IMG/VR virus record: IMGVR_UViG_3300037484_000435
Location: 256,001-320,000 of that record
Source of the DNA: a virus
Lineage: Duplodnaviria > Caudoviricetes
DNA: 64,000 nt
Direction: 5' to 3' (one strand)
Positions 1-24,974 of the stretch are shown one piece after another. Under the pieces are notes generated by a model, which was not told the origin of the DNA, did no database searches, and saw nothing but the letters and a program-made list of their open reading frames with translations. Position 1 is the first letter of the stretch. The number at the start of each line of letters is the position of its first letter. The translations under genes and the position numbers were made by a program.

Positions 1-3000
1 GAAAGGGGAGCCTCAATCTCTGGACACTGGGTGTGGTCTTCGTAAGCGAAGGCCTTGACAAAGTTAATCTAAATTGCGAATAACGTCCTCGTGGCAATAG
101 GTCCGTATTACTAATAGTATACCAACCTCCAGCGTTCAGCCCCCAAATAGAATCTGCAGACCTTGTTCGGTAATAATTTGTAAATGTTGTACCTGTAAAA
201 TTAACACATCTTTTATAGGTAGAAGACAAAAATCCGGGAACAGCACAAACAAATTTTGAATGGGCCCCGACACTCTGGCCCGCACTTACCATATGAATAG
301 TATCTTGGTCGGGATTCTCAATAGATTCAGAGCAAAGCACATAAGCTAGCTCTGAAGTGGGGTGGGGAAAAACATTTATTATCCCGCTTATATAATTGTC
401 AAAATCCACGGGGTTCGGGTCATTCAGGTCTAAAGAACGTTTAAGATTTACCCGCATAAGCCTCTCAGCGTCTAAATCAACTAACCATAGATTACCCAAA
501 GAATCACAAGCCCCTTGGTGCAAATCCACGAAGGAGCCACTTATAATGGTGCCCGCTTCTATCTGTCTTACATTATCCAAGGATGGCGTTTCGTTTGTGT
601 ATTCCTCTTTAAATAAATGTACGCCCGAAGCGGTAAACGCCCAAAACCCACTGAAATCTCTATTTGGTATCGACACAATATGCTTGTAATCCGATTCAAT
701 ATCTAGGTAATATAAATAACTATAGTATTCACAATTATCTAATGGGTCTTGGCTAGTCGTTAGTTCCCCCGCACCAAAAACTCTAATGGTATTAAAGCTA
801 CCAACATCTGTCTTATAAACCCTCCCGATAGACCCACCAAGATATATCCACCACCCATTATTAGCATAATCTTCAACAACATCATAGTAGTCAGTAGCCC
901 CCAACTTAACCCCGCGGTAAGTTATAATAGGGAACGCCATCATAACCTGCCCATTATTATAAAACCCCATATTTACCTGAGTACGCACATCTGCTGTGAG
1001 TTCCTGTGAAGTGCTGGTGCTAATAGCCGAAAAGAATACACCGTCAGAACTCTCCAGAGGAAAAGTCTTTGTATAGATAACTGACTTGGTGGGGCCCCAC
1101 TCAAAACCGGATACAGAGGTTCCCGTGTTCCATAGACTAGTATCATCTAATTTACAAACACATAGATTATACCACTGTAAAGGGTCTAGAGCTTCTTGAA
1201 CGGGGTCAATATCGCCACACGTAGTATATCCAGGTGCCATGAAAGATGCGGTTCCTCGGCTATTCACTGCCCCATAATAATTCAAGGGCTGACCCGCAAA
1301 AGTGTAATCCGCCATCCTCCAAATTTTATTTCCTACTTGTGGTGAATTGCACTCCACCCTACTAATTACGTAACCATTGGAATCCAATACAATCCTTTTA
1401 TGTTTATACATCAGTTTCTCATGAGTATTCTCTGTAGTTATGATTGAGAAAATAGCTTCCGCAGGTTGAGTATCCGCGGACTTCACCTCAATCTGAGGGT
1501 AAACGCCGCCAGTGGGATAAACATATAAACGCACTGGATTACGTTCCGTATCAAACACGGGAGAAAGCCAACTACCACTGTAGGAAGTATCTGGGAGTTG
1601 CAAATTTCTACGGTAAACCACAGAGCCACTCAAAGTACCCAACTCCCAAGGGTACTGTTCAGGAATTAAAAATCCTCCGGAATCCAGCCCCTCCCAATGG
1701 GCCTCTTCTTTATCGTATTGAGTGGAGTAATCAGTTGAAATAAATATATTTCTATCTACCTCATAATTCCCAGTATAAGATAAACTTAAACGTGGGAACG
1801 CTGAACCACTTCCAGTATTTTTAATGTCAAGAAACTGTGGATCCGTGTCGCTAAAAGTATAACGAAGTGTGGGCAAGGTTCCAGACATCGTAATTTCATC
1901 TGTTCCCCTAACCATAATAGATACCCCACTAACCGTAAGAGGAGAAGACCCAGAATTACCAAAAAACAATCTAATCCTATCTAAGCCTTTCTCTGGACTA
2001 AAAGTAACTTGATGGTGAGCTCCTGAAGATGTTACCCAGTTCCCTGGATACCAAGAATAGGTGGGATAAGAATAAATCTGGTCAGCCTCTATCAACTTTA
2101 ACTCACCAATACAAACATAGTAGTAACTGACAGCTTGATTATTTCTCGCAGTTATCCGTAATCGATAACGGGAATAGGCTTGGGCATTATTAAAATTGAA
2201 GATAGAACTCCACGCATTTTGTCCTGGATCACTAATACTGGTCCGTGTATCAAGGCTCGCCCAATAAGCATCATTATAGGCCACTGCTCTAGTATCATTA
2301 GTTCCCTGCAATACCCAATCACGAGGAGCACCTCTGAGAGAAGCATTACTGTCATTCCGAGTTAAAATCTGATACCTATTAATAACCTTACCCGTGCCAC
2401 TAAATGTAAACATTAGGCAGTGAGGGGCAGTACCCGACATCTGAGTATTTGCAGATTGCCAACTATCACCTGTTGTAGCATTAGTTTGTGTGAAAGCTTC
2501 ATAAGGCCAATATCCTGCGACTTCAGATGAAGCACTAGCTCTATAACCAGCAGGCTCATCATGATAAGTCATCTTTGGTGTAGCATATCCAGTATTGTTA
2601 TTGTATACCCCATCAGAGGATAACTGGTCACCAGCAAATTGGGCATAATCTATTTTCATTATACCTGAAGGAGTTGGACTAGTAGTAATCATAATTTCTG
2701 AGCATTGTATCTCAGATTGACTTTGGAATTCTAAACCCACGTAAGTTCCACTAGTTAAAGTTATTGGGAAAGATAATTTGGAACCTTGGGAGGGCAACTC
2801 TACTATAGTTGCGATGTGGGCCTTTATAAAATAATACCTGTCATCAAAAGAAAAACCAGATGCGTAGCCAGTTATATTGGTGGACTTCATATAACTTGTT
2901 CCAATGCTAGGCAGGTTAACTCTGCTAATGTTATTGGATCCAGAAAGCCCAGAAGCGAAGTAAAGAGATAAATAGTAGAGGGGATAGTCTGAGGGTACCC

Positions 3001-3328
3001 GCTTAGGAGTAAAGTAGAAGTACTGATAACCTGTGCTTCCCGAAACTGTAACAGTGGCCACATCTATTATACGCCAATTTATACGATCTGCAGTACCCGC
3101 TATCTTAACAACAAATGTGGCTGGTATATTACATCGTATGCTCACCCCAGCCAATACCGAATTTGGAGGAAGGGACACGTTAGTATCAATAATAGTAGTA
3201 TTGGAATCAGCCCCGTAATCATTTCCACCAGTCGGCCAAGATGTTGGTAAAGTATAATACCAAGACCCAGTTTGTTGTATTCCCGAAGTACATGTTGTAT
3301 AGAATAAATCATTAACTATGTTATACAT
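1..3328 (-). CDS. Tail appendage/baseplate adhesin-like protein, paralog 3 (partial, >=1,109 aa, runs off left edge; absent from supplied ORF track). Contains an F5/8 type C (discoidin)-like domain and the shared C-terminal scaffold
   Basis: ATG at 3328 lies 1 nt after the TAA of the upstream gene (GGGAGCAT-TAA-T-ATG). My manual translation found no in-frame stop down to the window edge. It starts MYNIVNDLFY, has a discoidin-like segment (PKMTY...APRDWVLQGTND...YSRYRLRIT, ~2090-2580), and carries SGSWLSPV, GNLWLVD and LPRGRYSQFRLTLSR...TPSVQRLRLP, matching the two upstream proteins. Confidence 0.9.
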   Translation of the reverse strand, partial: MYNIVNDLFYTTCTSGIQQTGSWYYTLPTSWPTGGNDYGADSNTTIIDTNVSLPPNSVLAGVSIRCNIPATFVVKIAGTADRINWRIIDVATVTVSGSTGYQYFYFTPKRVPSDYPLYYLSLYFASGLSGSNNISRVNLPSIGTSYMKSTNITGYASGFSFDDRYYFIKAHIATIVELPSQGSKLSFPITLTSGTYVGLEFQSQSEIQCSEIMITTSPTPSGIMKIDYAQFAGDQLSSDGVYNNNTGYATPKMTYHDEPAGYRASASSEVAGYWPYEAFTQTNATTGDSWQSANTQMSGTAPHCLMFTFSGTGKVINRYQILTRNDSNASLRGAPRDWVLQGTNDTRAVAYNDAYWASLDTRTSISDPGQNAWSSIFNFNNAQAYSRYRLRITARNNQAVSYYYVCIGELKLIEADQIYSYPTYSWYPGNWVTSSGAHHQVTFSPEKGLDRIRLFFGNSGSSPLTVSGVSIMVRGTDEITMSGTLPTLRYTFSDTDPQFLDIKNTGSGSAFPRLSLSYTGNYEVDRNIFISTDYSTQYDKEEAHWEGLDSGGFLIPEQYPWELGTLSGSVVYRRNLQLPDTSYSGSWLSPVFDTERNPVRLYVYPTGGVYPQIEVKSADTQPAEAIFSIITTENTHEKLMYKHKRIVLDSNGYVISRVECNSPQVGNKIWRMADYTFAGQPLNYYGAVNSRGTASFMAPGYTTCGDIDPVQEALDPLQWYNLCVCKLDDTSLWNTGTSVSGFEWGPTKSVIYTKTFPLESSDGVFFSAISTSTSQELTADVRTQVNMGFYNNGQVMMAFPIITYRGVKLGATDYYDVVEDYANNGWWIYLGGSIGRVYKTDVGSFNTIRVFGAGELTTSQDPLDNCEYYSYLYYLDIESDYKHIVSIPNRDFSGFWAFTASGVHLFKEEYTNETPSLDNVRQIEAGTIISGSFVDLHQGACDSLGNLWLVDLDAERLMRVNLKRSLDLNDPNPVDFDNYISGIINVFPHPTSELAYVLCSESIENPDQDTIHMVSAGQSVGAHSKFVCAVPGFLSSTYKRCVNFTGTTFTNYYRTRSADSIWGLNAGGWYTISNTDLLPRGRYSQFRLTLSRPSLTKTTPSVQRLRLPF

Positions 3329-3329
3329 A

Positions 3330-5885
3330 TTAATGCTCCCACCACGTTAACAAGTCCATGTTAAAATTACCAGTTTCTATATCATATCGTAGATGCGGAT
3401 TCACATAAAACTTATCACTACTCCCATAGGGAACGTTGTTAAGAACTAGCGGCAATGGTATCCTAACTTGATTTACCCGAGGAGAATCAATACTAGTTAA
3501 ATCTCGCCTAAATGTCAACCTAAACTGCTTATATTTTCCAGGGGGAATAGTAAGACTAGTGTTCACGTAAGGTTTCCACTCCAGCGTAACTCTATCGTCT
3601 GAACCAAAAATAGGGTCATTAACTCCAGGACTTATGTAAGAACCAGATAATTTGCCAGTGAACTGCGCCCCGCTCCAATCTGATAAAGGCAAGGAGGGGA
3701 CTTCTGTAACTACTTCTTCTGTCTGATAGGGGTCATCTACCCATACCCTTTTTATGACGGGCGTAAAGGAGTCCGAGTGAAACCCTATATAGACAAACGC
3801 CGACCCATCGGTCGGGTGGGGCCATACTCCCATGGCGTATGGTATGTGGTTCGTGTAATCTACAGACCGTGTGGCTAGGTTTATCCTATAGACTGTTGCT
3901 GTATCTCTGTCTACCACCCAGAGATTACCAACTTCATCAACATCCCCAGCCTGTAGGTATTGAAATAAAGTAGACTCAACCTTAAATTGAACATCTAATG
4001 TGGGAGTAGTAGGTGCTGTATTTTCTTTATAATAAAAAACACCATCATTTCTTATTGCCCACAAACACCCCGCTTCGGGGGATTCTCGTAAAGCATTATA
4101 CCCGCGTTTAACAGCGTAATCTGTCACTAAAAATCCATCGCCTGTATACTTTCCTATAGTATTTGTGCTGTAACCAACATGCATCCAAAAACCACCTTCA
4201 TCGTCATCTGCAGAACTGCAAGAACAGACAGCATAGCCCTCATCTGCAGGGGCTTGACCGACACCATATATACCCAAAAGCTTACTTTCAGAAGTCCAGC
4301 CATTACGCACATTTAGTAAATAAAGACACATATATTTTTCGGCCCCTGCATCACAGGGATACATAATCGCAGTAACCACAATCCACTCATTGGGATGTTT
4401 AGGTTTAGGGATAGTGGTTGACCCTATATATTCAAAATACACTGGGTCATTTGCCAACCCTATTCCGCCCATAAAAGCGTGTGACTTAAAAGGATAAATC
4501 TGCTTAAGGTAGTCCGTTCCCACATCTTTACCTTGGTCCCACAACGCGGTGTTATAGGGAGTTGTATAGGTTAATCTATTGTAAAGAGGGTTCACAGGTA
4601 CCTCAATAGTACAATATCCGAAGTCTTCCCCTAACAACCCAAAAAAAGTTGCGGCATTCCAATATTTATTTATAGCCCCAAAATTTTTGTAAGGAATGCC
4701 GGTCCAATAATCTCGGGCCCCCATTTGATTAATATCTGGAGATGCTTGAGCTATAATTGTGCCGTCTCCTTTCATATAAATCCTATCTGAACGCCCAAAA
4801 ATATAAGGGCAAGGAGCAACAACTGTTGCATAAGCACACCCTATTTCCGAGAGTTGTCGCATCCAATATTCGCTTGTAGGAGCATACCCCTCTTGTGTGG
4901 TCGATGTGACTTGGCGTTTGTCAGGAGCTGAGAAACTATCTACCCCAACACGACCCTCGTCATCTGCTAAGGTATGAAGTTTATAAGTCCATTGGTTTAT
5001 AAGAAAATTTGGCAGGGGAGTCTCGTCAGAGGCTCTGATTTCCAATACTTTATCTATGGATAACCAGTCCCTTTCCACACCTGACCTATCCCCTTCATTT
5101 TCAGAGTATACATACAAGGACATATAATTGGGGTCAGACACATAAATGACTGGAGATATCCAACTTCCAGAAGTAACAGTTCCTGAAAGAGTAAGAGACC
5201 TACCACTTACCATGGTATTAGCAAAAACACCTCCATCCCAAGGAACATGCTCGGGAAGATTGATTCCCCTATCTACATGATATTTATCGACGTCAGCCTT
5301 ACCACTGGCCGTTAATACAAAAACTCTATCACGATTATAGTCTCCGCTATAGATGGGCATCACTCTTATATCTTGCTCGGTTCCTTGAATTGAATTGTTA
5401 GTAACATCTATCTCAGCATTGCCGTAACTGGACGCGGCAATAGAAAATTCTTGGTAGTTGTAGTCTATAGGGTAATCTACAGTATTTAGAGACAGGGAAC
5501 TTATCCCCAATAAAGAATTCCCGTAGTTCCACAAACTGACTTGTAGTTTGGAAATTAGCTGTGCTTGGTCAGGGAGAACACTAGTAAAATTGGTACGAAA
5601 AACATCCCCATCTTGTGTAGCCTCCACAGAAAAGCACTCCCCATTACCGGGATCGATTAATAACGATACATCCAAGGATGCCCCAGATATAACAGTTCTC
5701 AATTCAAAATCAGTACAGTAGAACCCAGTACCTAGAGAAAATTGTAAGGTGGCGTTTCCCAAAATGGGTAAATAAACGCCGCTGGACAAAGTAATACCCG
5801 CCAAGGATTTCATTTCGGACCTAGTAAAAAGCCGACCCCCAGCCCCGTTTGTTATATTAGCATATCTAAGAATATTTACAGACAT
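3330..5885 (-). CDS. Tail appendage/baseplate protein, paralog 2 (~851 aa): mostly the shared C-terminal scaffold with a beta-propeller-like segment
   Basis: The track ORF is 3330..5906. The internal ATG at 5885 (MSVNILRY) is the more likely start because it follows GGGAG and lies 2 nt after the upstream TAA. Motifs: SGSWISPVI, GDVDEVGNLWVVD, IPPGKYKQFRLTFRR...SPRV, C-terminal DLLTWWEH. Confidence 0.85.
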   Translation of the reverse strand: MSVNILRYANITNGAGGRLFTRSEMKSLAGITLSSGVYLPILGNATLQFSLGTGFYCTDFELRTVISGASLDVSLLIDPGNGECFSVEATQDGDVFRTNFTSVLPDQAQLISKLQVSLWNYGNSLLGISSLSLNTVDYPIDYNYQEFSIAASSYGNAEIDVTNNSIQGTEQDIRVMPIYSGDYNRDRVFVLTASGKADVDKYHVDRGINLPEHVPWDGGVFANTMVSGRSLTLSGTVTSGSWISPVIYVSDPNYMSLYVYSENEGDRSGVERDWLSIDKVLEIRASDETPLPNFLINQWTYKLHTLADDEGRVGVDSFSAPDKRQVTSTTQEGYAPTSEYWMRQLSEIGCAYATVVAPCPYIFGRSDRIYMKGDGTIIAQASPDINQMGARDYWTGIPYKNFGAINKYWNAATFFGLLGEDFGYCTIEVPVNPLYNRLTYTTPYNTALWDQGKDVGTDYLKQIYPFKSHAFMGGIGLANDPVYFEYIGSTTIPKPKHPNEWIVVTAIMYPCDAGAEKYMCLYLLNVRNGWTSESKLLGIYGVGQAPADEGYAVCSCSSADDDEGGFWMHVGYSTNTIGKYTGDGFLVTDYAVKRGYNALRESPEAGCLWAIRNDGVFYYKENTAPTTPTLDVQFKVESTLFQYLQAGDVDEVGNLWVVDRDTATVYRINLATRSVDYTNHIPYAMGVWPHPTDGSAFVYIGFHSDSFTPVIKRVWVDDPYQTEEVVTEVPSLPLSDWSGAQFTGKLSGSYISPGVNDPIFGSDDRVTLEWKPYVNTSLTIPPGKYKQFRLTFRRDLTSIDSPRVNQVRIPLPLVLNNVPYGSSDKFYVNPHLRYDIETGNFNMDLLTWWEH

Positions 5886-5887
5886 CG

Positions 5888-8800
5888 TTACTCCCGCGGC
5901 CACCAAATCAATAAGTCTAAAGTGTAATCACCTGAAGCCAAATCTATATCTTCATCCTGTGAGAGGGTATCAATAAACAAATCTCGGTAACCATGCCAAG
6001 GAATTTTATTCAGCAACGCTGGTTTTGGGATTCTAATATACCTTACCCGCGGAGACGCAGAGGCCAAATCCCTCCTCCGTAAAGTTACCTTCAATTGTTT
6101 ATAATGACCCTTTGGTAAGGTGGGGCTCCCCGCACTATATCGCTCCCATTGAGTATCATCATTCCAGAAAACATCTTGTGGTAAAACAGTATAATAACCC
6201 TGTGGTGTAGTAGACCTACCATACAGATTAACATTGTAGGACTCAATTAAAGAAACTCCCGGTACTACACAAACCGTCTCAGGAACTATATAGTCATAAT
6301 CTCCCACATGAACTATTTTAACACAATCGTTTGTAGGAAATTCTGGGTCTCTAATAACATAAACATAAGCAGAACCATCATACGGATCGGGATAGACACT
6401 GCTGGCCCCATCAATAGCCCTACTATAGTCTACAGGTTGGTTACCTGCCTGCAGGTCTTCAAAGTTAATACGAATTACTCGTTCGGTCATTAAATCTACA
6501 AACCACAAGTTGTTATTATAATCTATATTACCAAAGGTAATTAGTTTAAATTCCTTGCCCAAAGAATCAGAAGATACTGAGTACCTTACAGACAGAGCCC
6601 CGCCCTCGTATTCTAACCAATAAACAGCTCGCTCAGCTAACCCCCAAAAACCACGTGGGGCGTCATGTGCCCCCTCCAACACGTAATTAAATTTTAACTC
6701 TATGTTGGTGAACTCCTTCTCCACCCGTTCATCAGTCACTAATAAAGTTCTATAGTAATTGTTATTATCATATTCGTGAGCATAATGTACCCAATAACTA
6801 AATGAGTCGCTGTGATTATCTAGACAAGACCCAAAGCGTACACCGTCAGTATATAAAGCATCAATTAGACCGGGAAAACTGTAGAGATAATCAATCTCAG
6901 TGTTGGACTCAGGCGTAGAAGCACTACCTTGAAACGAATAAAGGTTCCGTAAATGAAATAAAGTATCAGCATAATAGTACTCTTGGAATCTTTCATAGAA
7001 AGGTTGGGTTCGTAATATGGCGTCCACAAAATGAAACGCTCCCTTATTTACTCCGCCCTCAGCCCTTGTTGTGTAACGGAGGGCCTTATTAAAAATAGGA
7101 TACAGAAAAGCATTAGTACGTGGATATATATGTAGATTTTGGGAAGAAGCTGGGTCTGTTGAAGGAATAGCAACTCCTTGTGGCCAGACATAATATGCTC
7201 GATACCAATCTTCATTTCTATTAGACCCGTCTTCAGTAATATCAAAATTGCCACCGTATTCTTGCCCCAAGGATATCGCCCCACGTCGATTAGCGTCTAG
7301 GAAGCCATAAAATTGCCATAAAGGTAAACGAGACGAATAAGGCCACATGCGTCGGGGAGAGCTATTCGCGGCTGTTAAACTTCCACGTTCCAATCTAGCT
7401 GGGTCATACATACCCCTAGCGGGCCAAGATGAATCCGAACCATTAGAATCAAAAGCTACCATTTTCCATGGATATTGCAGACCATCAGTAGGGGAAGTAT
7501 CTACACCAGTCACTAGAAATGAGTGTATAGGTTTGGTATTGGACGATCGTACCTCTACTATATTCATACCAGATTGAAAGTCCTTGGTAATATAACTTTC
7601 ATCGTGAGCAATATTTTCGCAATAGACATAACATGCTGTACTAGAGGGGTCTAGTATTTCAATCACAGGGGAAATCCAGTGACCAGAGGTAGTATTAGAA
7701 TTAAGTTCAATGGCCCCATCGTAAGCCAAATTCGTCCCCTCAAACTCTCCTATACCAAAGGAATAATCCTCCGGAAGATTGGTCCCCACATCGACATGTG
7801 ACCAATTTACTTGGTCCTCAGATATCAAGACTACACGGTCCAGATGATAGTTATTAGAAAACCTAGGTAAAACTCTAGCATTGGCGTATGTCCCCGTGCG
7901 GTTATTATTATAAACCTTGATTTGTTCATACCTCGCGTAAATTGTAGGTAAATCTGCGACACCGATCCCGCTACCTGTAGCCCCAAAGGCAACATCCTCT
8001 CCAGTATTTATAAGCTGTATCGCTCTCAACCATCGAATCGAATTATAACCACCACTGGCTGATGCCGTATTCGAACAAAAGACTTTAGTTGCTGTAATAG
8101 TTTCGGTATCAAAAGGACTATAAAAATAACCAGCCCCGCTCCATGTTAAATTCCGCTGTGTCCAATCAACTGAACCAGATACTTGTGTATATAAACTCGC
8201 GTTAAGGTTCTGGTTACTATCCACGTACAATCTAAATTCTTTAGATTTAGCACTAAAACGATTAAGATTAGACTCAACACCTACATATCTATTTGGGAAC
8301 AACGGAATAGCCCCAGAGATGGACGTATTAAATAAGCGTTCGAGATGCGGAGTGGACAACTCTTGTTGAGCACCCTGTACATTAGTCCAAGCGTCACTCT
8401 GGTAGTCAAGTTCCAAAGACCTGAATTTGTAACCAGCACTATCCGTAAAGACAATTCTGTAATATCTGTAAAAATTAGGCTTTACTATATAGTAATAAGA
8501 AGTCCACGTAGCCTCAGCAGGCCTGACCGCGTTATCCACAGAATCCAGTAAATCCCAACCAACCAAGTCATTAGAACCTTCAACAACCCACGACTTACAC
8601 CAAGCAGAAGCGTCCGTCAAAACAAATGTGGGCTTAAGTCTGTATTTAAAGATACGGTGAGAAGTCGATTCTGGTCCAGTCTCAATCATGCACCATCTCG
8701 GAAAACTAAAGTTCTCCGGCATCCACCATGTCGAATCAGAGTAATCAAACATTCTCCACGGTTCATACGAGGCACCGTAATCAGCATTACTGTACACTTT

Positions 8801-11800
8801 GTAAGGTGAAGGAGTCGTATATGACGTCATAGGAACAGGCGGCATTCTAATAACACCACTCACGGTGGCATTAACAACATTTTTATTATCTGCAGATTCT
8901 AAATGATTAAAGACATCAGGAACGTTCCACCCCCCATCAAAATCTAGCGGAAAAATAGCCAACTCATTAACCCTTACTATTCCGCTACCCACAGGATTAT
9001 TGTTACCAACTCTAACCGCTATAGTAGCCAGCGGGTGTCCAGACCAGAAATATATTGAGTAATGGTCATCATTTAATTCTCGGTAAGGGAGTATGACTAA
9101 CCCAGACGTAGAAGTTGGAATAAAAGATGTTCCAGAGGCGGTTCCTGAAAGGTGTGTAACTTCTGGGGCCACACTAAGGACGTTAGGTGCGTCTAATCCT
9201 TTAGTAAAGTAAACTCTTAGTTCTCCATAGAATAGGCCTAGGTCATCCGGTATCTCTCGTATCTCATAATCAACAGCAGTATTCTCAGGAATAATTATCC
9301 CACCAGTCCTTACATGCTCATCATGTAATTCTGGAATTTGTACACCAGAAGACATGATGGGGGCTAAATGAGTTGGATATGTAAATGGTTCCGTATAATA
9401 AGGATGGTCAGGTAACTGAACATCCAACACTGCCAACTCAGATACGGGCACGCCGGAAGCCGAAGGATTTGCGAGATAAAGTCTAAACTTACTAGTTTCC
9501 ACCCTTCCATAAATAGTTTCGTAACCACTATCAATTCGGTATGGAATATCAATTTTCTTTGTAACACCACTCTGAGTAGCAACAGTATACCCGTAGCCAG
9601 AAGGAACTAAGGACCCTAACCACGACACATCGTTTCCCCCAGAACGTGTTATATGATGTAGATGATAACCGTAGAGAACAGGAGAATAAGGGTTCTGGCC
9701 TTTAAAGTATTGAATAAAACCTAACGTACCAGCATTTGCTGCTGCCCCCGCCCCGTGCCACTCTGATTCCTCTACCTGCTCTAACTCAACCGATGGGAAT
9801 CTATAACTACCTGCATCGATTATGGAACGGAGAGCAGAGAATTTTGTATTTTGTGGGGGAGTCATCCAAGATGTATCATAATATTCCCATTGCCCTGCAT
9901 TATCTCGTATGACGGGTCTCCAATAATCAGTATCAAAAACTTTATAAGTTATTCCTTGGTCAAAAGTAACCGCATGATATAATGCTGTCCCAGAAGGCTC
10001 AGAACTATCTACATCAATTCTTGCTATACGTCCTAAGTAATTATAGACCCAATCAGTACCAGATGATGTGGCCGAACAAGCCACACCAGAAGACAATGAT
10101 AATCTGTTAGTAAATTGTAATTCCCTTAATTGTACTTGGTTATCAAACTTAAACGCATAATATCTATAGTCGGAGTCTAGGTCAAATACTGACGTCCAAG
10201 TATAATCAGATGGGATAACACTAAAATTACCACTAATACTAGTCCAGTAAGGAATAGTGGTTGCCCCGTATACGGACCACCCCCAACCCGAAACAGTTTC
10301 TCCTGGAAAAAACCGGTAACCATCAAATTTACCCGATTCCCCCAAATCAACCACAACATCTGATAAAACAACCGAGTCTTCTGACAAGCCGTCCAAAACC
10401 TTATAAATATTTTTCTTTTTTGTGATGGTAACTTTTAGGTTAATTGCCTTCAGGGTATCGCCTTGAAAATACATGTATATGTCTCTCGGAATAGAATAAG
10501 GACCTGCGGGACCTTGCTGAGCCACTTGTGTTCCACTAGCTGCTGTAAACTTCGGAACAAAAAAATCCTGATGACTACTATCATAGCCCACCGAGAAGGT
10601 AGCCCTGTAACCAGCCTGTATAGCTAATTTACTATTACTCCAAACAGCCAAACTGCTGTATGTTGGATTCGAGCTTATAGGATAACCATAAAAATTAACA
10701 CTATCCCCGTAGTAAAGTGAAGAGCCTACGGAAGTATGGATGCTCTTCTGTAAAGGTGCATCCTGATAGGTACGCGAAACAGCAATCCTGAATCTCCAAT
10801 GTTTTTCTGGAACTACAAAAGTTTCTGGTAAGTCAAAATAATTTAAACCGTTACCTAAGTGAGTACCCGTTACCAACGTCTTGTAATAAGCTATAGGTAA
10901 ACCTGGTGTATTAAAACAATCCTCGTAAATTAAAAAAACGAGAGGCACCGCGGAAGTCGTATAAAAACCTATACGAGTGAGCTCCTTATTTTCACCCAAC
11001 ACGAGGGAACCATCCACATAAGTCTGCCCATTTACACCATCTACATCACCAGCGGATACATCGCCATCAAACTGATAAGCGTCTCTTGCTGGGTCTATAA
11101 TCTCGACGCCCACACTATCTATAATTGTACCAGGGGTTATTGTCATTAACTTATAAGGAAAATCGGTTTTCTCAGTAATGATAAATGTTAATTCCTCCAC
11201 ATCATTGTAATCAGTATGGACTGAATATGGTGCTGGGTCAGTATTAGAAGTCATCCCCAAAGAATCCAGTTTAAATGCCTGACCTCCAACCATATCATCA
11301 AATCCTTTATTAAAGGCTAGGGCCACCCCGCTAGATTGAGAGACCAGATTGTGGATCGATTGTATAGCTTGGCTACCGCGAACATCACTTACGATAGTTT
11401 GATATTCTGAGCTACTTTCCACTGTTGCTCCGCTTTGTGTGGTAAAAGATAACTCGTTCCCTAACAAGCTGCTGGGACAAGGTACAATTCTCCTCAGAAA
11501 AGACCCACCAGATAATGAGGTGGAATAGAGGGGTGCGGATAGACTAATACGATTACCACTTGCTGCAGTTAAAACAAAAACCCCTGAATAAGTTGCATCT
11601 GTGATATCTACTAAACCCCCGCTAGACAAAGTATCTGTTACTACAGGAATAGAAATTGAGTCATTAAATCTACCTGTGGTATAGGTCAATATATTTATAC
11701 CACTAGGGGTGTATTCTCCGCCAGTCAGCAAGTTGTAGGTTTCACCAGAATCTTGCAAATAACCGCTCGGGGATTCGGGTGACCAACTAACTTTCCCCGT

Positions 11801-14800
11801 AATAATATCCAGAATGACCATATCCCATTGATTCCCAGATGTAGTATAGTTAATATAATCCGAATCGCTTGAAGTCTGTAATGGAACTACTACACTCGGG
11901 TTACCGCCGAAAGTTACTACGGACGGTGTACAGAGTAGAGACCAATCCGTAATCCCCACATGATAAGGGTAAACTTTTATTCCACTAACAGAGGGTGAAC
12001 TCCTAAATGTGTGGGCTATAGAAAGGTCACCGGAACCCACAGATTGAAAATCTCCATGAGTGAGTGATTCCACACCACTTGCACTAACAGAGGTCCACGA
12101 AAACTGGTCATCCCGTGAAAGAGATGTGTCTACAAATTCTTCTTGTTCAATGAATGTCCTTATATAAGGTATATATTTTCCAACAGTGTATATCCCAGAG
12201 ATTGTGGTGCTGTAGTTCCCTGATACTGAAGGAATTACGGGCACGTCTGAGAAATGTAAACTAGATATATTTATGCCTGTAGCACAAGTAGTTGACCCAT
12301 AAATATTAATACCATAATATTGGTACGCTTTGGTATTCAACAAATTATTCCACATTACTTCAGGGACCTCGTCCTTCTCGTAATAAACTATCCGGACTCG
12401 AACCACCCCTTGTGTATCTGGTACAATTGCATTGGTGCCAAGATATAAATCAAGATTAGCAAAATTATTTGTTCCTGACCAACTCATCACTATACCGCTA
12501 CCAGCAAATTGTGAAGATACTAGGGAGTTTCCGTCTCCCAACAAGGAATACGTAGGAGAACTTCTAAAAGCTATTTTCGGCTCATTAACTATACCAGGTG
12601 AATTTGGAATTGATATCCTGTCACCAACCTGATTTCCTAATCGATAGTACACCCCATATTGTCTTTGTGTATTTCCTGCGAAACCGACAAGAGTTTGACC
12701 AGTACCCAAATATAAACCGGGTTCCCAAAAAGCCCCAGAAGCAGGGATTAAATAAGGTTCAGGTAAATGGTACCAGTAGTTTCCTGTGCCTGGATGTGTA
12801 ATACCAGAGCAAATATTAAATATACTGTTTACTGAGGCATCCCAATGAAATACTGCTTTATAGGTAATACCTGTAATTGGGACTGAACTATACATCCCTA
12901 TATCAGAAATATAAGTTCCCCCCGGAATGCCCGTAGGATTGCCCTGAAATACATATGTGTAATCCCCGCTAATCCAATAGTTAGCAAACCCCCAAGTAGT
13001 AGGGATATCTAATTGCTTACTATACCATCCACCTTTACAAGGGCTATCTACACCCAAGTAAACTTCTAAACGTTCAATACTATCTCTAAGGGTAAAGAGT
13101 TTCCTAGGAAAGGTTCCACTAATAGTAATTAAGAACTCTTCCTCTTTTCTAATAAGTGGAGCAGAGGGTGGCGGAACATAATCATATACCTCTGATAATA
13201 TTTTCCATCCCTCCTCTGGGTCCAAAGCATCTAAACCATACTTAACTTCTGGTCCCAGCAACGGGGTATCTACGGATGACCTTATACCGAAACGAGTAAG
13301 ACAAACTCGTCTTCCAAAATCAACAACTATTTTTCCCGGTGCTTCCAAAGTGGTTGCTTTAGCAAAGTATAGACCGTCCTGATTAAGGGTAGGATACTTT
13401 AACCGATACATATTAAACACTTCTTCATCAGTCAAATACTTATTAAAATGCATTACATTATCTAAAGAGAATTCCCCCTTAACTCCATCAGAACCCTTAA
13501 GAGGTAAACCAAAATACATACAGTTTGCTTGGTCACGCTCAGTATAGTGTATGTCTGTGGGGTCTACCATAATAACCGAGTCGGAAGGATAAACATCTGA
13601 ATAGAGATTACTAGAGTATATATCAGGAGCACCATCCACCCATACTTTCATACTACCATCAGATTTAAAAGCATAGGCTATATGATGCCACACCTGATTG
13701 GGCCAACGATAACGACCAGTGACAATTGCTTTACCATAATTCCCAAAAACTAAACGACTCTGATAATAGCACTCTTTAGGCTGTAAATACGGATAGGGAG
13801 AATCATTAAATAATAAGTCTTGATAATAAGAAATATGCCAAACTCCTGGTATGGCCCCATAGGAAACCCAGCCACCCATAATATCATAATAAGCAGTATA
13901 TCCTACATCTACAGTATGACCTGGCTTAAACCAAAACGCTACTGTATATTCGGTCAACCGAGAGGGCAATGTAAATCGTATGTTTCGTTCTTCATCTGAA
14001 TTATCATCACTAATATACGCACACCTTCCAACCTTTCCCACATTACTAAGAACTGGCCCCACCCTAGTAGCTATTACATTATTCCCAGATAAATCATCAT
14101 AATCCCCCTCTTCCTCATCTAACGTATGCCAAGCCATTATATTAGAGTTACCCAACTCCACGACAGTAAAGGGTATATCTTCTGGATTCTCTGGGTCATA
14201 TTTAAAAATAACTTCTGGCGTTGGGCACACAGTATTTAGATTATTCTCCCCATGGTAAAAGTAGGAACCAGGAGAAGGCTCGCTCGCACCATAAGAAGTA
14301 AAAGTATTATATATTTCCTTTACTGCCCTGTGCACACCAGGATGATAAAGCATCTCTATTGAGGCTGGGTCTATCCCACTCCCGACAATCCTCTGTATAA
14401 CATTATAAGGTTCTTCCACAATATGATAAGATTGATAAGATTTATTTATCAATAATTCCATCTCAGCTAAACTTGAATATCCTGTAGCAAAATTAGAGTG
14501 GCACGGGTCAAAACGAAAGTATCTATAGCTATCAACGTAATCGTCAAAATAAACCCAAGGCAACTTCGTAGCATTCGTTCTTGGTGCAAGAAAACCATCA
14601 TCAAAATACAATTCGTCCCACCCATCAGAAGATAATAGGTTCCGAGGAGAATTAGAACCACCTATCGTAATCATCGTGGGAAAATGTTCTAGATAGTAGT
14701 TGTAGCTACTTCCGGTCTGAAAACGAAAAGCATTAATATAGGAGGGCTCGTCAAAGCGAAGCATAAAGTAAAGGTGTTGTGTTTCATCCAGTTTACGATA

Positions 14801-17800
14801 GCTATAGAAAAAGGTACTTGGGTCCCCATCCATCAAATGCTGAGCAAAGTGGGTAGCTTCAAAACTGGCGGACCCTGAAATAGTATAGGGCCAAGCATTA
14901 TAAGTGTCACCACGAGAATCCTCAAAATAAAAAGTATAGGTAGTAATACCTTGTGTATCTGGGACTATTGGTGTCGCGGGGCGGTACAGGTAAACTGCAC
15001 TCGCTGTTGTGAACGGTCCTAAAGTTGTTCCCCCGACATACTGGTGGCCATCAGTCCCAGGACTAAACGCAGGATACATGATATCATGGTCTGTATCTGT
15101 ACCGACTGTGAAGTAAGTAGAATAACGAACAGCCAAATGGGGGCGTTGTGTACTATGCAGGGGTAAATTTATATTGGTTCCAGTGTAATCACCGTATTGA
15201 TATGAAACTAACTGAGCACCAGTATAATCACCCATCATTCTAGGAAAGTTAGGTTGATACCAACCCAGATGATAAGTAGCCCCATCACTAGGAATTTCGT
15301 AGGGGTTAGTAAGTTTAAACCAGCGGAAGCCACCACCAGAATGTGTAAAAGTCGCGATGTCCCATATGTCATACCACTCCCCACCCACATTCCTGTCTTT
15401 AAAGATACGAAAGGAAATATTACTGGCTAGGTCGGAATCAACTCCCACATAAGCAATAGCCTTACCATTATCAAGATTCCAGTGGCGGTCAACAATCGTC
15501 CAAAAACTATTAGAGTAGGTCCCAGAAGCGGTATCAGGATTACCATCAACCTCAACATACCCACCCTGAGTTCCTGACACAGATGTAATCACCATCCCTG
15601 TAACTTGGTAATATGCAGGTAAGTCTAACAACTTAACAGGATAAGATGCCTCGGAATAGGTTACGGTTTCGGTATAGGAATTCCCCTCAGCAGTCTCGAT
15701 AGACATACCAGAGAGTTCCATATTGTAGGTAGACCCTCCCCAAACGGAAGAAACTTGTAGGCGATAATTCAAGGCTGAACTAGGAAGGTCATCAAAAGCC
15801 ATATATTGAACTACAAGCGGTAAAATTAAATCAGTTCTATAACTTCCCAAAGTCACCGTACCCGTTGGTCCGGGGGAAGGTATAACACCTAAATTTGCGT
15901 ATCGAAAATTTTTACCAGAAGACGTCCGTTGCAGAGAGGATAAGCTAGAGACACCTCTCCAAATCCCAACATAGTAATTACCAACCGCAGGCACCTTAAG
16001 TGGGGCTGAAAGAGTAGTCCAATGCAAACCATCACTCGGATGATTAATTGGGCCAATATCACTAACTTCCCACGTTAAGTCATTAATATTTTTACATAGT
16101 TTAAACCTAGCTTCCCCAGGGGTCCCAAGACAGTTTAGCCCTATCTTGTCAATCACATAACCATTATCTAGTGGTATTGTAAGGTCCACAAATAATACAT
16201 TATTGTCACTTATTGCGTTAGTATTCCCAGCAACAAGATTACCCTCTATCCGTCTTACACTATCCTCGGGAGAATAAGGTATAGTAATTGTTGGACCAGT
16301 TACGGCCTCACCACCACTAGGTAGGTCCCCTCCAGGTTTGTCGTAATCTACTTGTGTTAACTTTATCCAATCCGCATCAACATCCAAACGCGGAGTTCCC
16401 GATGTAGAAGCCCACAACGATACTGTTTTTGGGGATACTAGCCTGTGTGCTAAATTTTGACTCCCCACAGTTACAGAGTCTTTCACAGCGGTCAAATTGA
16501 ACGCAGTTATCTGAACAGGTTTAGACCTATAATCAATCCCTATGTTGACCACCCCAGAAGACATGGGGTATTTACTTACATATTGTGAGTAAGTAGTCCC
16601 GTCAAATAAGTAACGGGCATCAAAACCTTGTTTAGCTTCCAGTATGGTAAATCCTATGTTGGAGCCAGAATCATCGGAAAACTCCAATTTACCCAGACGG
16701 ACACAGCAAGTGTTGTCTCCGTAGATTGAATTTACTTTTAGTCGGTAGTGGTAGTAAGCTCCAGACGCCGTAATCCCCATAAAGTCAGAATATCTATTGG
16801 GTGCAATTGGCAATACACAAACACCAGAAGTCAAAAATGTCCAGTGGGATTCATTTTCTAAAGAAGGGCTCGTAAGGTTTGAAGCAGAAACTTCTACATT
16901 GTGTGGAAATTCTATGTCCCAATAATAATAGTTAGACGAAGACTTGATGCGGAGTTTATTAAAGGTACGTTGCTCCGTCATACCCAAACCTATTATAACT
17001 GGGCCTTTATCTATAGGCCTACCACTGTGAAATTCTACAGAAGAGTCAATATCAAAAGCATAGGTTGCTTCCTTCCCTGGTTGGCACGTATTCTCTGTCA
17101 CCCAATATAAGCCACTTGGGGCTGTTTCCATGTAATTAGTAGTGAGGTAATAGCTGGGCTCAGAAAACTCTACCACAGAGCCTACCTGCACATCTGGGGC
17201 ATAACTCGTGGGAGTGTTAACTGTAATCAATTGTGTAGCATAAGCATCAGGGGAAACTATTTCGACCGTATGTTTTTCTGTCACGCCAAAGAAATCTGGT
17301 AAAGCATATTTAACATTGTAAAGTTTATTATAGAAACTTGTTCCTGTGAGAGTAACCCAGTCACTAATTTGTAAACCATTATTGGTGGCTGGAAAAATAA
17401 CTAAGTCAGACTTACGCACCTCTATGTTCTTTAATAAAACCACACCAGATTGAGAAGTAAAATCGCTCACCACTACAGTCTGTTCGTCATATGATGCAAA
17501 TTTAGGTAGTTCAAAATATCTATAATCTGTGTAGCCACTTAACCTAGAAAGTGCTCCCGAACTCTCGTCTATATCAGAAGCAATTAGGATATCTAGGTCT
17601 GCTGGAACTGTAACATTCAACCAGTCTGAAGTTAAAATGTTGTATCCACCTGAGATGGTGCACCCTCGTTGACCATCAAATAAGAACTCTTGCGGTGTTG
17701 CTGTACCAACAGGATTATAAGCAATACCCTTAATTGTTATTCCTTCTAACAGCGATTCTATCACACCATTGGAGACCAGCCCCACCCCAAATTGTGGGTA

Positions 17801-20800
17801 ACAACCACTAACCATTAAAGTCAAGTAGTCGGCTTGCGGAATACTTTGTAACTGGGTGGATGTCATTCTATTAGACCCTGCTGAAAAAGCATGCCACAAT
17901 GCCTTTCTGGCATTATTCTCGTCCGCAGTTCGCCAAAACTCTCTGTAGTATTTCCATACCCCACCGTCGTTCTTCGCTATCGTTTTCCAATGGTCCTGCT
18001 CATAGATCGACCAAGTCAAGCCACCGTCAAATGAGAGGGAATAATAAGCAGTAGAATTTTCACGCATGTGCTCGTTAGGAAGCACTTGGTGCACCTTATC
18101 AAAGAATATTGTAGAGTTCACTATGGCTGGGAATAAGCCGGGGGAAGTTCTGTGCTCACAAAAATCCAACTCGCAAATATGAGTGGATTCTGTACCGACA
18201 GGGGAACACATTTTGTTGTAGACATAAGGTTTTACCCAGACGTCATAAACTAGCAATCTGTAATAACGATAAAGCTCTAAAGTAGGATAATCAAACCAAT
18301 CTCCCACCGCACACGTTCCTGGGATTTGTCTATCTGGAGGATACTGGGAGGGGGCAAACAAATCAGGGTCATAATCAATAACTTGTTCTAGAGTTACCCA
18401 ACTAGATTCAACGTCTGGAGTATTCGATGCTTGGAATTTCCAACTCTTTGGTTTAGAACACGCGGGGTCCGGACACCCATAAGTGCCGCACAATACTGTT
18501 TGAACCCACATCCTATACTTACTGAATACTTTGGGACTCCCCAAATCAAACCCAAATTTCACAGGCATAGGACCACGATAGCATAAATCAATCCACGGAC
18601 ATTCATCTTTGATTAAACACTCCCATGGCTGAGACATACGGCGATCGAAGAATTTAGCTGTGCCTTCCCAACCAGTCCAGTCACCTTCGAATTCTGGGTC
18701 TTGTGCTTCACATACCACGAAGAAACTCCCAGCCCATTTCTCTGACGATCTAGTAACATACGCCCGCCCAGGGTCATCTAACTCATACCCAAGATTCATA
18801 AATCCCAAAATTGAGGTTCTGGATTTAAATACTAAATTGCCAGAAGAAAAGTCGGGCATACTAGACTCATACTCTGGGGTAATAGAGGGACCGGGAGTAC
18901 TGCTTAAATAACCTGACTCGTCATAAAGAACATCATATATGGATGTTATTTCTGTGTTCTCTTCTATAATGGAAAGTTCAACACTTCCGTAACCTTTACC
19001 ATAGCTATTGTAATCAATTATGTAACCTGTGTGCCCGTTGAGAAAATTAATCTGAGTATACGCAACAACATCACGAGCATCTTGTTTGGCACCATAATCA
19101 TCTATCTGAGGTCCAATAGATATAATCTTTCGAATCTTCGCTGATGGTGTAAAAGTCTCTTCATCATAAATACCCCACACCACTACTATATGTGCCGTAC
19201 TAAAAGTTAACACAATATACTGGCCATCGTAAAATTCGGTACCCTCAACTGTAATATAATCCCCCGGAACTAAGCCGTGATTGGTACAACGAAACCCAAT
19301 AACATTCGCGTCATACATGATGGCCTCTTGCCCGTCATCAAAGTCCACCTCTGGCCCCTCAAAATGCCCGTAATGTTGTGACTTCTCAATTACTAAATTA
19401 TCTATCAAGTCTATATCGGTGGGGGTTATATTCTGGAGATTAACGCCGGTAACAATACCATCATTTTTCCACCTAACAATAGGTCCTTTTATATTCCTTT
19501 GTTCAAAAGAAGAATTAGTCTGAAAGTCTAAAGTTACTACAGTGGACGTCGCGGGCATATAAGACATATTACGAATGACAATATCTTCATCCGTACTCTG
19601 CAGGGTAACTCGAATACCATCGTTGGTAGAGGTTACCTCGGTTCCAGGTATAAGTTGTCTAATTGCGTAACCTTGCTTATTCGTAATAGGGTCTGGTGTA
19701 CCGACACCTGCCCACACCTCGTCTTGAATCCATGTGCCCGAGATTGTTTGACCAACATCTAACAGGATTGGGTCTCCCTCAAAGTGTCCGCATTTACCTA
19801 TATCTGAAACCCAATGGCGTATATCTCCCCTTACAGCATGGTCTTGTACATGGTCTGAATCAAAAAGTGTGGAAGAAACAGTAATGTTTATCGGAGCAAT
19901 AGACACGTGTGAAAGAGAGACGGGTCCGTCCTGTGCCCCAGAAAGAGTTAGACTAACATGGCTTGTTTCTGGTAAACCAGAAGGTTGTCTAATAATCTGT
20001 CTAATAGATTGATTTGTTAAATCTCTGCTTTCTGGCAAACTTATTTCAGGAGTAGTGTGATAATCGGCTGATACTAAATTAACCGTCTCAGCAGTCAACA
20101 GAGGAATAGGTTCGGACTCAAAGTAGCCGATATTTCCTTCTAGTTGCTCCCAATAAGCAATTACACCTTTTACATCTTCCCGTTCTATTCGTGCTACATC
20201 ATCAAAGTAAACTGTATGAGGAATCTGCTCTTTTGTGAAACTAGGAAAAGTTATTGCTTCTACATATTCTATTTTTTCTAGATTTATGTAATTAGCCCAC
20301 CCTGCTAAAATATCAAACAAATAATAACGGTAACGCTGGTCATTGTAAAAAGTAAACCAAATAGACCAGACACCATCAAAATTGGGAGCACCCAACCAGT
20401 ATTGATCATTTCTTATATCCAAATCAACCCAATTAATATTATCATTACTGGCCCGCAATACCCAACTTCGAATAGGACGGTTGGGATTCCACCAAGTTTT
20501 ATATCTATACTTATTAATACACTTAGGGTTATTTACTCCACAATCTACTTTAATCCACCCAGTGTAGTCTTGGGGATCCCACCCAGCTGGCATTGCTGGT
20601 TGACTAAAAATCTGATAGTCTAAGGAATGATTCCTACTAGTGCTTACTACATAAGGTGCAGGAGCAGTGTTACTAGTCATAGTAGGAACCGCTCTAGTAG
20701 TGCTGGTATTCTTTGACCCGTCTCCCATAAAAACACCAGTGACAGTAGTTAATAAATAGGTAGGCTGTTCAATTGCAAGGCCCGTAAGAAGATAGTTAGT

Positions 20801-24646: not shown

Positions 24647-24716
24647 TACATAATTCCTCCAACTAGTATACTGCTTTAATCAACAGGTTACTTAATTTGT
24701 GTGTCCCAACAACTGA

Positions 24717-24974
24717 CTAGACCCTCTTACCTATAGCTACTGCTGTAACTTTGTACTCGTTGTAGTCTGTTTCACTCGCAGGTGCTAGACTTTGTTCTAG
24801 TATGTACCCTTTGAAATGAATGCCCCCAGCCGTAAGTTCTAAACCAGGACCACCGGGAGAATAGGGTGCCCCAGTACCAACCTTAGAGTAAACTGTCATT
24901 GAAATGTTTGCTAATCCATTACTCTGGTAAGAAATACTAAGAGTAGAACAATCAAGAAACGATTCGTCGGCCAT
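24717..24974 (-). CDS. Small hypothetical structural protein (85 aa)
   Basis: Its ATG overlaps the stop of endonuclease 3 (TAATG). Beta-strand-like pattern (LSISY, ISMTVY, FKGYIL, YKVTAVA). Confidence 0.7.
   Translation of the reverse strand: MADESFLDCSTLSISYQSNGLANISMTVYSKVGTGAPYSPGGPGLELTAGGIHFKGYILEQSLAPASETDYNEYKVTAVAIGKRV

What the first reader, a model, noticed from the sequence alone, without database searches (positions are those of the whole stretch)
1..7930. Three consecutive genes share a ~680-aa C-terminal scaffold with swapped variable cores and very different N-terminal payloads
Seen: the same ordered blocks occur in all three proteins. These are an N...R...y..dR...P entry segment; SG.W(I/L)SPV...(V/L)YVY...E(V/I)(R/K)(S/A)...P at ~7680, ~5160 and ~1570; a divergent ~300-aa core; a propeller-like W...D..(G/N)NLW.VD..r..R.N...VD(Y/F)...P.P...a(Y/F)V block; and (L/I)P.G.Y.Q.r.T..R...(S/T)P.V..(I/V/L)R(I/L)P. 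The two complete proteins both end G...DLL.WW. N-terminal extensions are about 4,370, 155 and 495 aa, and all three carry a TL(A/S/T)SG.Y motif near the start. Inference: these are paralogous subunits of one hetero-oligomeric baseplate or appendage. A split beta-sandwich (WISPV half plus Q.r.TL half) would hold a variable receptor-binding core, and the largest subunit would project a long lectin arm. I do not recognise this family.
Basis: partly seen in the sequence, partly recalled or inferred. Interest (0 to 1): 0.75.

Follow-up and report, generated by a model that had tools for sequence, protein, structure and literature searches.

The report
Triplicated propeller tail proteins of megaphage
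Three neighbouring genes in the tail region of a 545-kb uncultured phage are old copies of one ancestral gene; all keep the same seven-bladed propeller module, and two have gained long arms of sugar-binding-type domains, so they are probably short, medium and very long host-attachment proteins of a family nobody has described.

Summary
The three minus-strand genes (5054, about 851 and 1155 aa) share a significant C-terminal module (BLASTP E 2e-45 to 3e-19). All three end in LL.WW and share an N-terminal head of about 80 aa.

The "swapped variable core" reading is not supported. AlphaFold2 models of two paralogs (pLDDT 86.5 and 82.7) show that the "divergent core" and the "propeller-like block" are one seven-bladed YVTN/YncE-type beta-propeller (Z 22.4 and 21.5 to 1l0q). 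It sits between beta-rich flanking domains. Its first blades simply evolve faster. Among orthologs the core is 35-85% identical and tracks the flanks, so there is no cassette exchange.

The three genes form three well-supported ancient clades. Their order is conserved in the four relatives examined. A 256-kb relative has a single 784-aa gene at the same locus, so this is a tandem triplication. The extra length comes from added domains (at least eight discoidin-like domains plus a weak LamG-like match in the giant).

Most likely they are distal-tail adhesins with different reach. Hetero-oligomer assembly could not be tested. The module matches no Pfam, PHROG or PDB sequence family. Only 43 representative clusters among 1.8 billion proteins match it.

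The parts
5888..21052 (-). Gene 1, giant paralog, 5054 aa: N-terminal head, ~4100-aa arm, C-terminal module
   Evidence: ORF, translation. Orthologs of 3623-4910 aa among the representatives; two neighbouring giants of 5227 and 4849 aa.
20753..21052 (-). Giant: N-terminal head (aa 1-~100), with the conserved MLxNxLS..SG...LT..E...L...TLSPGQYTCLE
   Evidence: Alignment of 9 giants. hhalign to the head of the 858-aa class, E 9e-6.
8429..20752 (-). Giant: arm (aa ~101-4208). At least 8 discoidin-like domains (aa 112-265, 802-948, 1296-1460, 1461-1596, 2038-2202, 2539-2634, 3549-3648, 4070-4216) and one weak LamG-like match (aa 2367-2481).
   Evidence: Iterated HMM. Pfam DUF5000 above its cut-off; Laminin_G_3 below its cut-off (17.5 vs 27.6 bits). 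PHROG 'tail protein' phrog_17517, E 2e-13. Several segments are present or absent among orthologs.
5891..8428 (-). Giant: shared module (aa 4209-5054) = second head-like domain, WISPV domain, propeller (aa ~4510-4955, nt ~6188-7525), C-terminal domain ending LLIWWPRE
   Evidence: The domain limits within the giant are transferred from the 858-aa model through the alignment; the giant itself was not modelled.
3330..5885 (-). Gene 2, minimal paralog (851 aa from the ATG at 5885; 858 aa from the TTG at 5906)
   Evidence: Orthologs start MSxNIL.
5457..5885 (-). Gene 2: head / first beta-rich domain (aa 8-150, TTG numbering)
   Evidence: AF2 secondary structure. This is the least conserved part among orthologs (mean 38% identity).
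5022..5429 (-). Gene 2: second beta-rich domain (aa 160-295) with SGSWISPV...LYVY...EIRAS..P
   Evidence: Nearly invariant positions across all classes.
3627..5021 (-). Gene 2: seven-bladed beta-propeller (aa ~296-760).
   Evidence: VIA-align Z 22.4 to 1l0q_A (279 aligned, rmsd 3.2). Z 21.2 to the 7-bladed designer protein 7bid_A, 279 of its 286 residues aligned. Atlas YncE/YVTN/lactonase clusters.
3333..3626 (-). Gene 2: C-terminal beta-rich domain (aa 761-858) with PPGKYKQFRLT..R...SPRV..VRIP...LLTWWEH
1..3328 (-). Gene 3, medium paralog. 1155 aa in full; the last 46 codons and the stop lie 141 nt beyond the window start (L007:861-4328).
2087..2611 (-). Gene 3: discoidin-like domain (aa 240-414)
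   Evidence: phrog_16348 E 2e-19 and phrog_17517 'tail protein' E 9e-12. HMM E 8e-55.
167..1465 (-). Gene 3: seven-bladed beta-propeller (aa ~622-1054)
   Evidence: Model m550624fbb710, pLDDT 82.7. Z 21.5 to 1l0q_A, 288 aligned.
21081..21776 (-). 231-aa gene upstream of the triplet. Its ortholog (51% identity) directly precedes the single-copy module gene in a 256-kb relative.

Best explanation
The three genes are an ancient tandem triplication of one distal-tail gene of a clade of very large phages that show no detectable sheath.

The ancestral unit survives here as the ~851-aa middle gene, and as a single 784-aa gene in a 256-kb relative. In order it has: an N-terminal head domain of about 100-150 aa, a second beta-rich domain, a seven-bladed YVTN/YncE-type beta-propeller, and a small C-terminal beta-rich domain ending LL.WW.

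The first and third copies grew by adding domains between the head and the rest. The third copy gained about 350 aa, including one discoidin-like domain. The giant gained about 4100 aa, including at least eight discoidin-like domains and a weak LamG-like match.

Shown here: the homology, the fold, the phylogeny and the synteny.

Inferred: all three are virion proteins anchored at the tail tip by the common N-terminal head, as in every tail fibre whose polarity is known (my background knowledge). On that reading they present related propeller heads, and in the giant many lectin-type domains, to host surface glycans at three different distances from the tail. They would be short, medium and very long adhesins.

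The differences in the first propeller blades are ordinary divergence between paralogs. They may give each copy its own ligand preference. They are not exchanged cassettes.
For: Homology.

Fold: model of the 858-aa protein, pLDDT 86.5, pTM 0.76, all-beta. Residues 296-760 are a 7-bladed propeller, Z 22.4. The third paralog was modelled independently: pLDDT 82.7, pTM 0.80, with the same fold and the same top hit, Z 21.5.

Three clades with SH-aLRT 100, 100 and 93-99, plus deep single lineages.

Gene order giant / ~855 / 811-1167 aa, followed by ~175, ~455, ~510, ~650, ~400 aa genes, is kept in four other contigs.

A relative has a single copy between orthologous flanking genes.

The shared N-terminal head is supported.

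Lectin-type domains match PHROG 'tail protein' families and, above its cut-off, Pfam DUF5000; relatives of the giant carry precomputed F5_F8_type_C hits.

Context: same strand and same cluster as the tail-tip genes, downstream of the giant ORF that earlier agents read as the tape measure. No sheath or Baseplate_J family is found in the genome. The genes are tightly coupled, with gaps of 2 nt and 1 nt and a Shine-Dalgarno sequence inside the preceding gene's last codons.
Against: There is no direct evidence that the proteins are in the virion or bind anything.

The conservation gradient runs opposite to that of classical fibres. The C-terminal blades and the C-terminal domain are the most conserved parts, both among orthologs (0.6-0.72) and between paralogs. 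The head domain is the least conserved (mean 0.38). This fits a structural, virion-proximal role for the C-terminus at least as well.

I saw no coiled coil or other long helical segment in either model, so the oligomeric state is unknown.

My PHROG scan of 8000 aa of the upstream giant ORF found no tape-measure family. The tail context therefore rests partly on earlier agents' work and on the 'tail protein' PHROG matches.
Confidence: 0.6

Rival explanations
1. The conserved C-terminal modules of the three paralogs assemble with each other into one hetero-oligomeric baseplate or tail-tip ring. The N-terminal parts, including the giant lectin arm, project outward. This polarity is the reverse of classical fibres.
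For: The C-terminal blades, the second beta-rich domain and the C-terminal domain are the parts most conserved between paralogs and among orthologs, as expected for an assembly interface. The three genes always occur together, in fixed order and translationally coupled, in the larger phages. The most variable pieces among orthologs are the head domain and the present-or-absent lectin cassettes of the arm.
Against: A relative manages with a single copy, so a hetero-oligomer is not intrinsic to the module. All three classes keep a common N-terminal head at the true N-terminus, which is the usual mark of the attachment end. No interaction has been shown.
Confidence: 0.22
2. The propeller is an enzyme, a depolymerase, lactonase or sialidase-like activity that degrades a host surface polymer, rather than a binding head.
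For: The best structural matches include 6-phosphogluconolactonases, muconate lactonizing enzyme, virginiamycin B lyase and a BNR-repeat putative glycosyl hydrolase. Propeller-type depolymerases are a recognised class in phages (DepoScope, PMC11326577; seen only in the search result, paper not read).
Against: Non-enzymatic propellers (archaeal S-layer YVTN domain, WD40 proteins, YncE, BtuG) score equally well. No Pfam enzyme family matches. The residues conserved across classes (G..D...NLW.VD, R.N, D(Y/F), P.P) look like a blade-structural motif. I did not map any catalytic constellation.
Confidence: 0.1
3. The proteins are not virion parts. They would be phage-encoded surface or secreted proteins that act on the infected cell or on neighbouring cells.
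For: There are no proteomic data. The architecture of a lectin domain plus a propeller plus a beta-rich domain also occurs in cellular surface proteins.
Against: The genes lie inside a co-oriented, tightly packed tail gene cluster. The discoidin domains match phage 'tail protein' families. I did not look for signal peptides.
Confidence: 0.05

Closest known systems
Receptor-binding protein Gp45 of Staphylococcus phage phi11 (PMC4901313), and the similar P68 RBP (PMC6795507)
   Same: A distal-tail host-recognition protein of a phage with a non-contractile tail, with a beta-propeller as its central element. Known to me from the titles and abstracts and from background knowledge.
   Different: The phi11 'platform' is a five-bladed propeller on a trimeric helical stem with a tower domain (background knowledge, not checked here). 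The propeller here has seven blades, lies between beta-rich domains, shows no helical stem, and has no sequence similarity to any PDB chain.
YVTN / YncE / lactonase-type seven-bladed beta-propellers (e.g. the archaeal surface-layer protein 1l0q, E. coli YncE 3vgz, 6-phosphogluconolactonase 6nau)
   Same: The fold of the central ~430-465 residues in two paralogs: Z 21.5-22.4, 279-298 residues aligned at 3.2-3.5 A.
   Different: Only 6-10% identity, and no Pfam YNCE, Lactonase, NHL or SGL match. Large loop insertions in the first blades. A phage tail context.
Carbohydrate-binding modules that decorate lactococcal siphophage tail proteins (evolved Dit, Tal extensions, BppA)
   Same: The idea that auxiliary lectin-type domains are added to tail-tip proteins to increase adhesion. 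From my own knowledge, not tested here.
   Different: The scale is far larger here (at least 8 discoidin-like domains in one 5054-aa chain), the domain families differ, and no homology was found.
Galactose oxidase architecture (N-terminal discoidin-type domain, seven-bladed propeller, C-terminal beta-sandwich)
   Same: The same order of domain types. It appears among the Foldseek hits (6xlt, 6xlr, 8tx5).
   Different: Whole-chain TM is only 0.14. It is a kelch-type copper enzyme. I did not check whether its active-site residues have counterparts here. This is an analogy only.

Membership tests
Seven-bladed beta-propeller fold (YVTN/YncE/lactonase-like) | Seven four-stranded blades closing a ring | tested here: met
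   Z 22.4 to 1l0q_A. Z 21.2 to the 7-bladed designer protein 7bid_A, with 279 of its 286 residues aligned. Same result for the third paralog.
Pfam YNCE / Lactonase / NHL / SGL sequence families | A match to the family profile above its gathering score | tested here: not met
   No such Pfam hit at E <= 0.01 for the three proteins, nor at E <= 0.1 for the 46 family members.
Discoidin / F5_F8_type_C-like carbohydrate-binding domains (arms only) | A profile match to a discoidin-type family | tested here: met
   Pfam DUF5000 at 28.3 bits against a cut-off of 25. Precomputed PF00754 hits on neighbouring giants in relatives. An iterated HMM finds 8 copies in the giant and 1 in the third protein. That DUF5000 is itself discoidin-type is my reading, not tested here.
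Phage tail fibre / receptor-binding protein | Encoded in the tail module downstream of the tape measure and tail-tip genes | tested here: met
   Gene order. 'Tail protein' PHROG matches. The tape-measure identity comes from earlier notes and was not re-proved.
Phage tail fibre / receptor-binding protein | A trimeric fibrous or stem region, and oligomerisation | tested here: inconclusive
   Both models are all-beta and largely globular, with no long helical segment. Only monomers were modelled.
Phage tail fibre / receptor-binding protein | Presence in the virion and binding to a host receptor | not testable with these tools
   The phage is uncultured and its host is unknown.
phi11 Gp45-type RBP | A five-bladed propeller platform on a helical stem | tested here: not met
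   Seven blades, and no long helix in either model. No PDB sequence match.
C-terminal intramolecular chaperone domain (Peptidase_S74) shared between fibres | A match to the S74 profile | tested here: not met
   No Pfam match. The shared C-terminal region is about 700-830 aa and all-beta, unlike the short, largely helical S74 domain as I recall it (background knowledge).
Cassette-type hypervariable receptor-binding locus (exchange of a core between conserved flanks) | The core is uncoupled from the flanks among relatives | tested here: not met
   Core identity of 0.35-0.85 correlates with flank identity (r = 0.73), with no outlier pair. The three clades are clean.

The most novel reading that the evidence does not exclude
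The three paralogs co-assemble through their conserved C-terminal modules into a hetero-oligomeric tail-tip complex, and the N-termini point outward. This would be a baseplate built from propeller modules, with polarity opposite to all characterised tail fibres. The 5054-aa subunit would project an arm of the order of 100 nm made of interchangeable lectin domains.
Probability: 0.2. Interest if true: 0.65.

Novelty: new variant of a known kind. Interest (0 to 1): 0.45.

Why it matters
How phages with genomes over 500 kb recognise their hosts is unknown. None of this clade is cultured.

This locus gives a concrete, conserved set of candidate adhesins. It is one protein family in three sizes, with a well-predicted propeller head and a modular lectin arm. 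These proteins could be expressed and used as probes to label and identify the host in sediment samples.

The locus is also a clear example of how giant phage structural proteins grow. A gene is duplicated in tandem, and whole domains are then inserted. Some insertions sit inside other domains, while the terminal domains stay fixed.

The module is absent from Pfam and PHROGs and could be added as a new family.

Tried and rejected
1. Similarity to deposited phage genomes. blastn 'distant' with window 1-8000 and tblastn with the 858-aa protein against 50,697 phage records found nothing.

2. Sequence families for the shared module.
- Pfam and PHROGs gave nothing.
- A profile of 15 orthologs against PDB sequences gave nothing at E <= 1.
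- The ESM Atlas by features gave one unnamed viral cluster at 0.75, which is only a lead, and nothing for the two flanking domains.

3. Whole-architecture structural matches. Foldseek against PDB, BFVD and AFDB clusters, and the Atlas shape search, matched only the propeller. Whole-chain TM was <= 0.35. The folds of the three flanking domains therefore remain unassigned.

4. hhalign of the three flanking domains against each other and against the discoidin profile showed no relation (probabilities 0.4-5.8%).

5. Complex prediction with three copies of the N-terminal head (13-row alignment) scored 0.01 against a mark of 0.42. That is no verdict, and no evidence either way. A test of the three C-terminal modules together exceeds the 1000-residue limit and was not run.

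6. The split-sandwich idea could not be examined, because the tools return no coordinates or PAE.

7. PHROG scans of 10 small neighbouring genes, of the six non-endonuclease genes between the hub and the giant, and of 8000 aa of the upstream giant ORF gave no structural family.

8. Two literature searches found no paper that describes this family.
Full report
WHERE THIS IS. The window is bases 256001-320000 of a 545,322-bp IMG/VR phage record. All large genes lie on the minus strand. In order of transcription they are:
- an ORF of more than 10,534 aa that runs off the window; earlier agents of this scan read it as a 14,711-aa tape measure;
- genes of 832 and 354 aa;
- five small genes alternating with four LAGLIDADG endonuclease genes;
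- several small genes and a 231-aa gene;
- the three genes of the finding: 5888-21052 (5054 aa), 3330-5906 (858 aa) and 2-3328 (open at the window edge).

From the genome I obtained the complete third protein, 1155 aa. Behind it come genes of about 176, 455, 514, 660, 400 and 2539 aa. The genome has no match to the Pfam sheath or Baseplate_J families. This fits a non-contractile tail but does not prove one.

- BLASTP of the giant's last 755 residues against the 858-aa protein gives E 2e-45, 26% identity over 735 columns, running through the supposed variable core.
- The third protein matches both others in two blocks: 6e-23 and 1e-10, and 3e-19 and 7e-10.
All three proteins end G....LL.WW.
- No further copy exists in the genome.

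A profile of the 858-aa orthologs matches the giants from about 830 residues before their end. Profile-profile comparison aligns residues 8-144 of the 858-aa protein with about 4209-4348 of the giant (95% probability, E 2e-8).

The 'TL(A/S/T)SG.Y near the start' motif is part of a real N-terminal head common to all three classes (E 9e-6 and 2e-9; alignments). The giants therefore hold this head twice. One copy is at the true N-terminus and one lies directly before the module. The 858-aa protein is essentially the bare unit.

WHAT THE MODULE IS. No Pfam, PHROG or PDB sequence family matches it. I collected relatives and aligned 46 of them. AlphaFold2 then gave a confident all-beta model of the 858-aa protein (pLDDT 86.5, pTM 0.76).

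An exhaustive structural comparison places residues about 296-760 on seven-bladed propellers:
- Z 22.4 to the YVTN propeller of an archaeal surface-layer protein (1l0q; 279 residues, 3.2 A);
- Z 22.0 to a 6-phosphogluconolactonase;
- Z 21.2 to a designed seven-bladed protein, with 279 of its 286 residues aligned.

The Atlas shape search returned YncE/YVTN/lactonase clusters.

To test whether the most divergent paralog really keeps this fold, I modelled residues 400-1155 of the third protein with its own alignment (pLDDT 82.7, pTM 0.80). Its residues 622-1054 give the same fold and the same best hit (Z 21.5).

The propeller is flanked by a head domain (aa ~17-150), a second beta-rich domain carrying SG.WISPV...YVY (aa ~160-295), and a small C-terminal beta-rich domain carrying YKQFRLT...RIP...LL.WW (aa ~761-858). 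I could not assign the folds of these three. Every structural search was filled by propeller matches, and hhalign shows no relation among them or to discoidin domains.

NO CASSETTE SWAPPING.
- Fifteen orthologs of the 858-aa protein from other large contigs (up to 647 kb) are 46-67% identical to it over their full length.
- Mean pairwise identity by region is: head 0.38, second domain 0.57, early blades 0.49, late blades 0.67, C-terminal domain 0.60.
- Identity in the early blades never drops below 0.35. It correlates with late-blade identity (r = 0.73) and has no outlier pair.
- A maximum-likelihood tree of the module gives three clades that match the three size classes (SH-aLRT 100, 100 and 93-99), plus a few deep single lineages.

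The divergence between cores is therefore old paralog divergence in the faster-evolving, loop-rich blades. It is not exchange.

ORIGIN. The order giant / ~855 aa / 811-1167 aa, followed by genes of ~175, ~455, ~510, ~650 and ~400 aa, recurs in four other contigs. A 256-kb relative has only one member, of 784 aa. It lies between an ortholog of the 231-aa upstream gene (51% identity) and an ortholog of the ~176-aa downstream gene (32% identity). The triplet is thus a tandem triplication of a single gene.

Length was gained by inserting domains.
- The third class ranges from 802-811 aa, with no insert, to about 1200 aa, with a discoidin-like domain placed inside or just behind the head.
- This phage's copy also has a private ~165-aa insertion in the head.
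- The giant holds at least eight discoidin-like domains and a weak LamG-like match, below the Pfam cut-off. These domains match PHROG families annotated as tail protein.
- Among ten giants, blocks such as aa 101-300, 1600-1800, 2600-2900, 3200-3650 and 4070-4216 are present or absent. Both terminal discoidin domains of this phage's giant are lineage-specific.

HOW IT PROBABLY WORKS. Shown: one family, one fold, three ancient paralogs, a tail-cluster location, and tight coupling of the genes. The gaps between genes are 2 nt and 1 nt, with a GGAG-type ribosome-binding site inside the WW..E codons of the preceding gene.

Inferred: these are distal-tail adhesins. I favour (about 0.6) attachment by the shared N-terminal head. 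Every class keeps that head at its true N-terminus, and all tail fibres of known polarity attach by the N-terminus (background knowledge). The three proteins would then hold related propeller heads at short, medium and very long reach, and the giant's lectin-type domains would add multivalent glycan binding.

In its favour, the C-terminal blades and the C-terminal domain are the most conserved parts, both between paralogs and among orthologs. Against it stand the single-copy relative and the shared N-terminal head. An enzymatic role for the propeller (about 0.1) cannot be excluded from the fold alone.

The one complex job I ran, three copies of the head, gave no verdict and counts for nothing either way.

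NOVELTY. Propellers and lectin domains in phage host-recognition proteins are known, for example phi11 Gp45 (PMC4901313). Paralogous fibre genes are also commonplace. New here are four things:
- the family itself (only 43 representative clusters among 1.8 billion proteins; no profile in Pfam or PHROGs);
- its head / beta-rich domain / seven-blade propeller / beta-rich domain architecture;
- the conserved three-size arrangement;
- the scale of domain addition.

I rate it a new variant of a known kind, of moderate interest. Other windows of this scan have covered the same genome (tape measure, endonucleases, nested domains in the giant). The listed notes did not include a follow-up of this triplet.

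Noticed in passing
window 5883-5906 and 3326-3345 (minus strand): The conserved C-terminal codons TGG TGG ... GAG (WW..E) of genes 1 and 2 contain the GGAG-type ribosome-binding site of the next gene. The gaps between stop and ATG are 2 nt and 1 nt. The 858-aa ORF's TTG start at 5906 overlaps gene 1. The ATG at 5885 (MSVNIL) matches the ortholog starts and is the likely start.
   Followed up: partly
window 2780-3268 (aa ~21-183 of the third protein): A ~165-aa insertion inside the N-terminal head of this phage's third paralog. It is absent from the 10 other members of its class that I aligned. Its content was not identified.
   Followed up: no
window 20258-20719 and 8405-8845 (giant aa 112-265 and 4070-4216): Two discoidin-like domains that almost none of nine orthologous giants possess (alignment occupancy 0.01-0.15). 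The arm also has other blocks that are present or absent among orthologs, so whole domains are gained and lost.
   Followed up: partly
L009:9863-12217 (IMGVR_UViG_3300005077_000001, 256 kb): A related, smaller phage has a single 784-aa module gene at the locus where the megaphage clade has three. It would be a simpler system for experiments.
   Followed up: partly
window 23819-28797: Four LAGLIDADG endonuclease genes (PHROG 4645, E 1e-42 to 1e-51) are interleaved with small tail-cluster genes. Another agent has already followed this up.
   Followed up: no
L006:15338-15922 (just beyond the window start): The 194-aa ORF behind the third gene overlaps its end. The alignment with the L009 ortholog starts at M19 (MAEVF...), which gives about 176 aa. 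Its C-terminal part may be the incomplete Ig-like domain mentioned in another first-reader note.
   Followed up: no
window 32395-56394: A PHROG scan of 8000 aa of the upstream giant ORF returned no tape-measure family. It returned only two unknown-function families on a ~60-aa stretch (aa 1869-1932 of the piece from 32395-44394).
   Followed up: no
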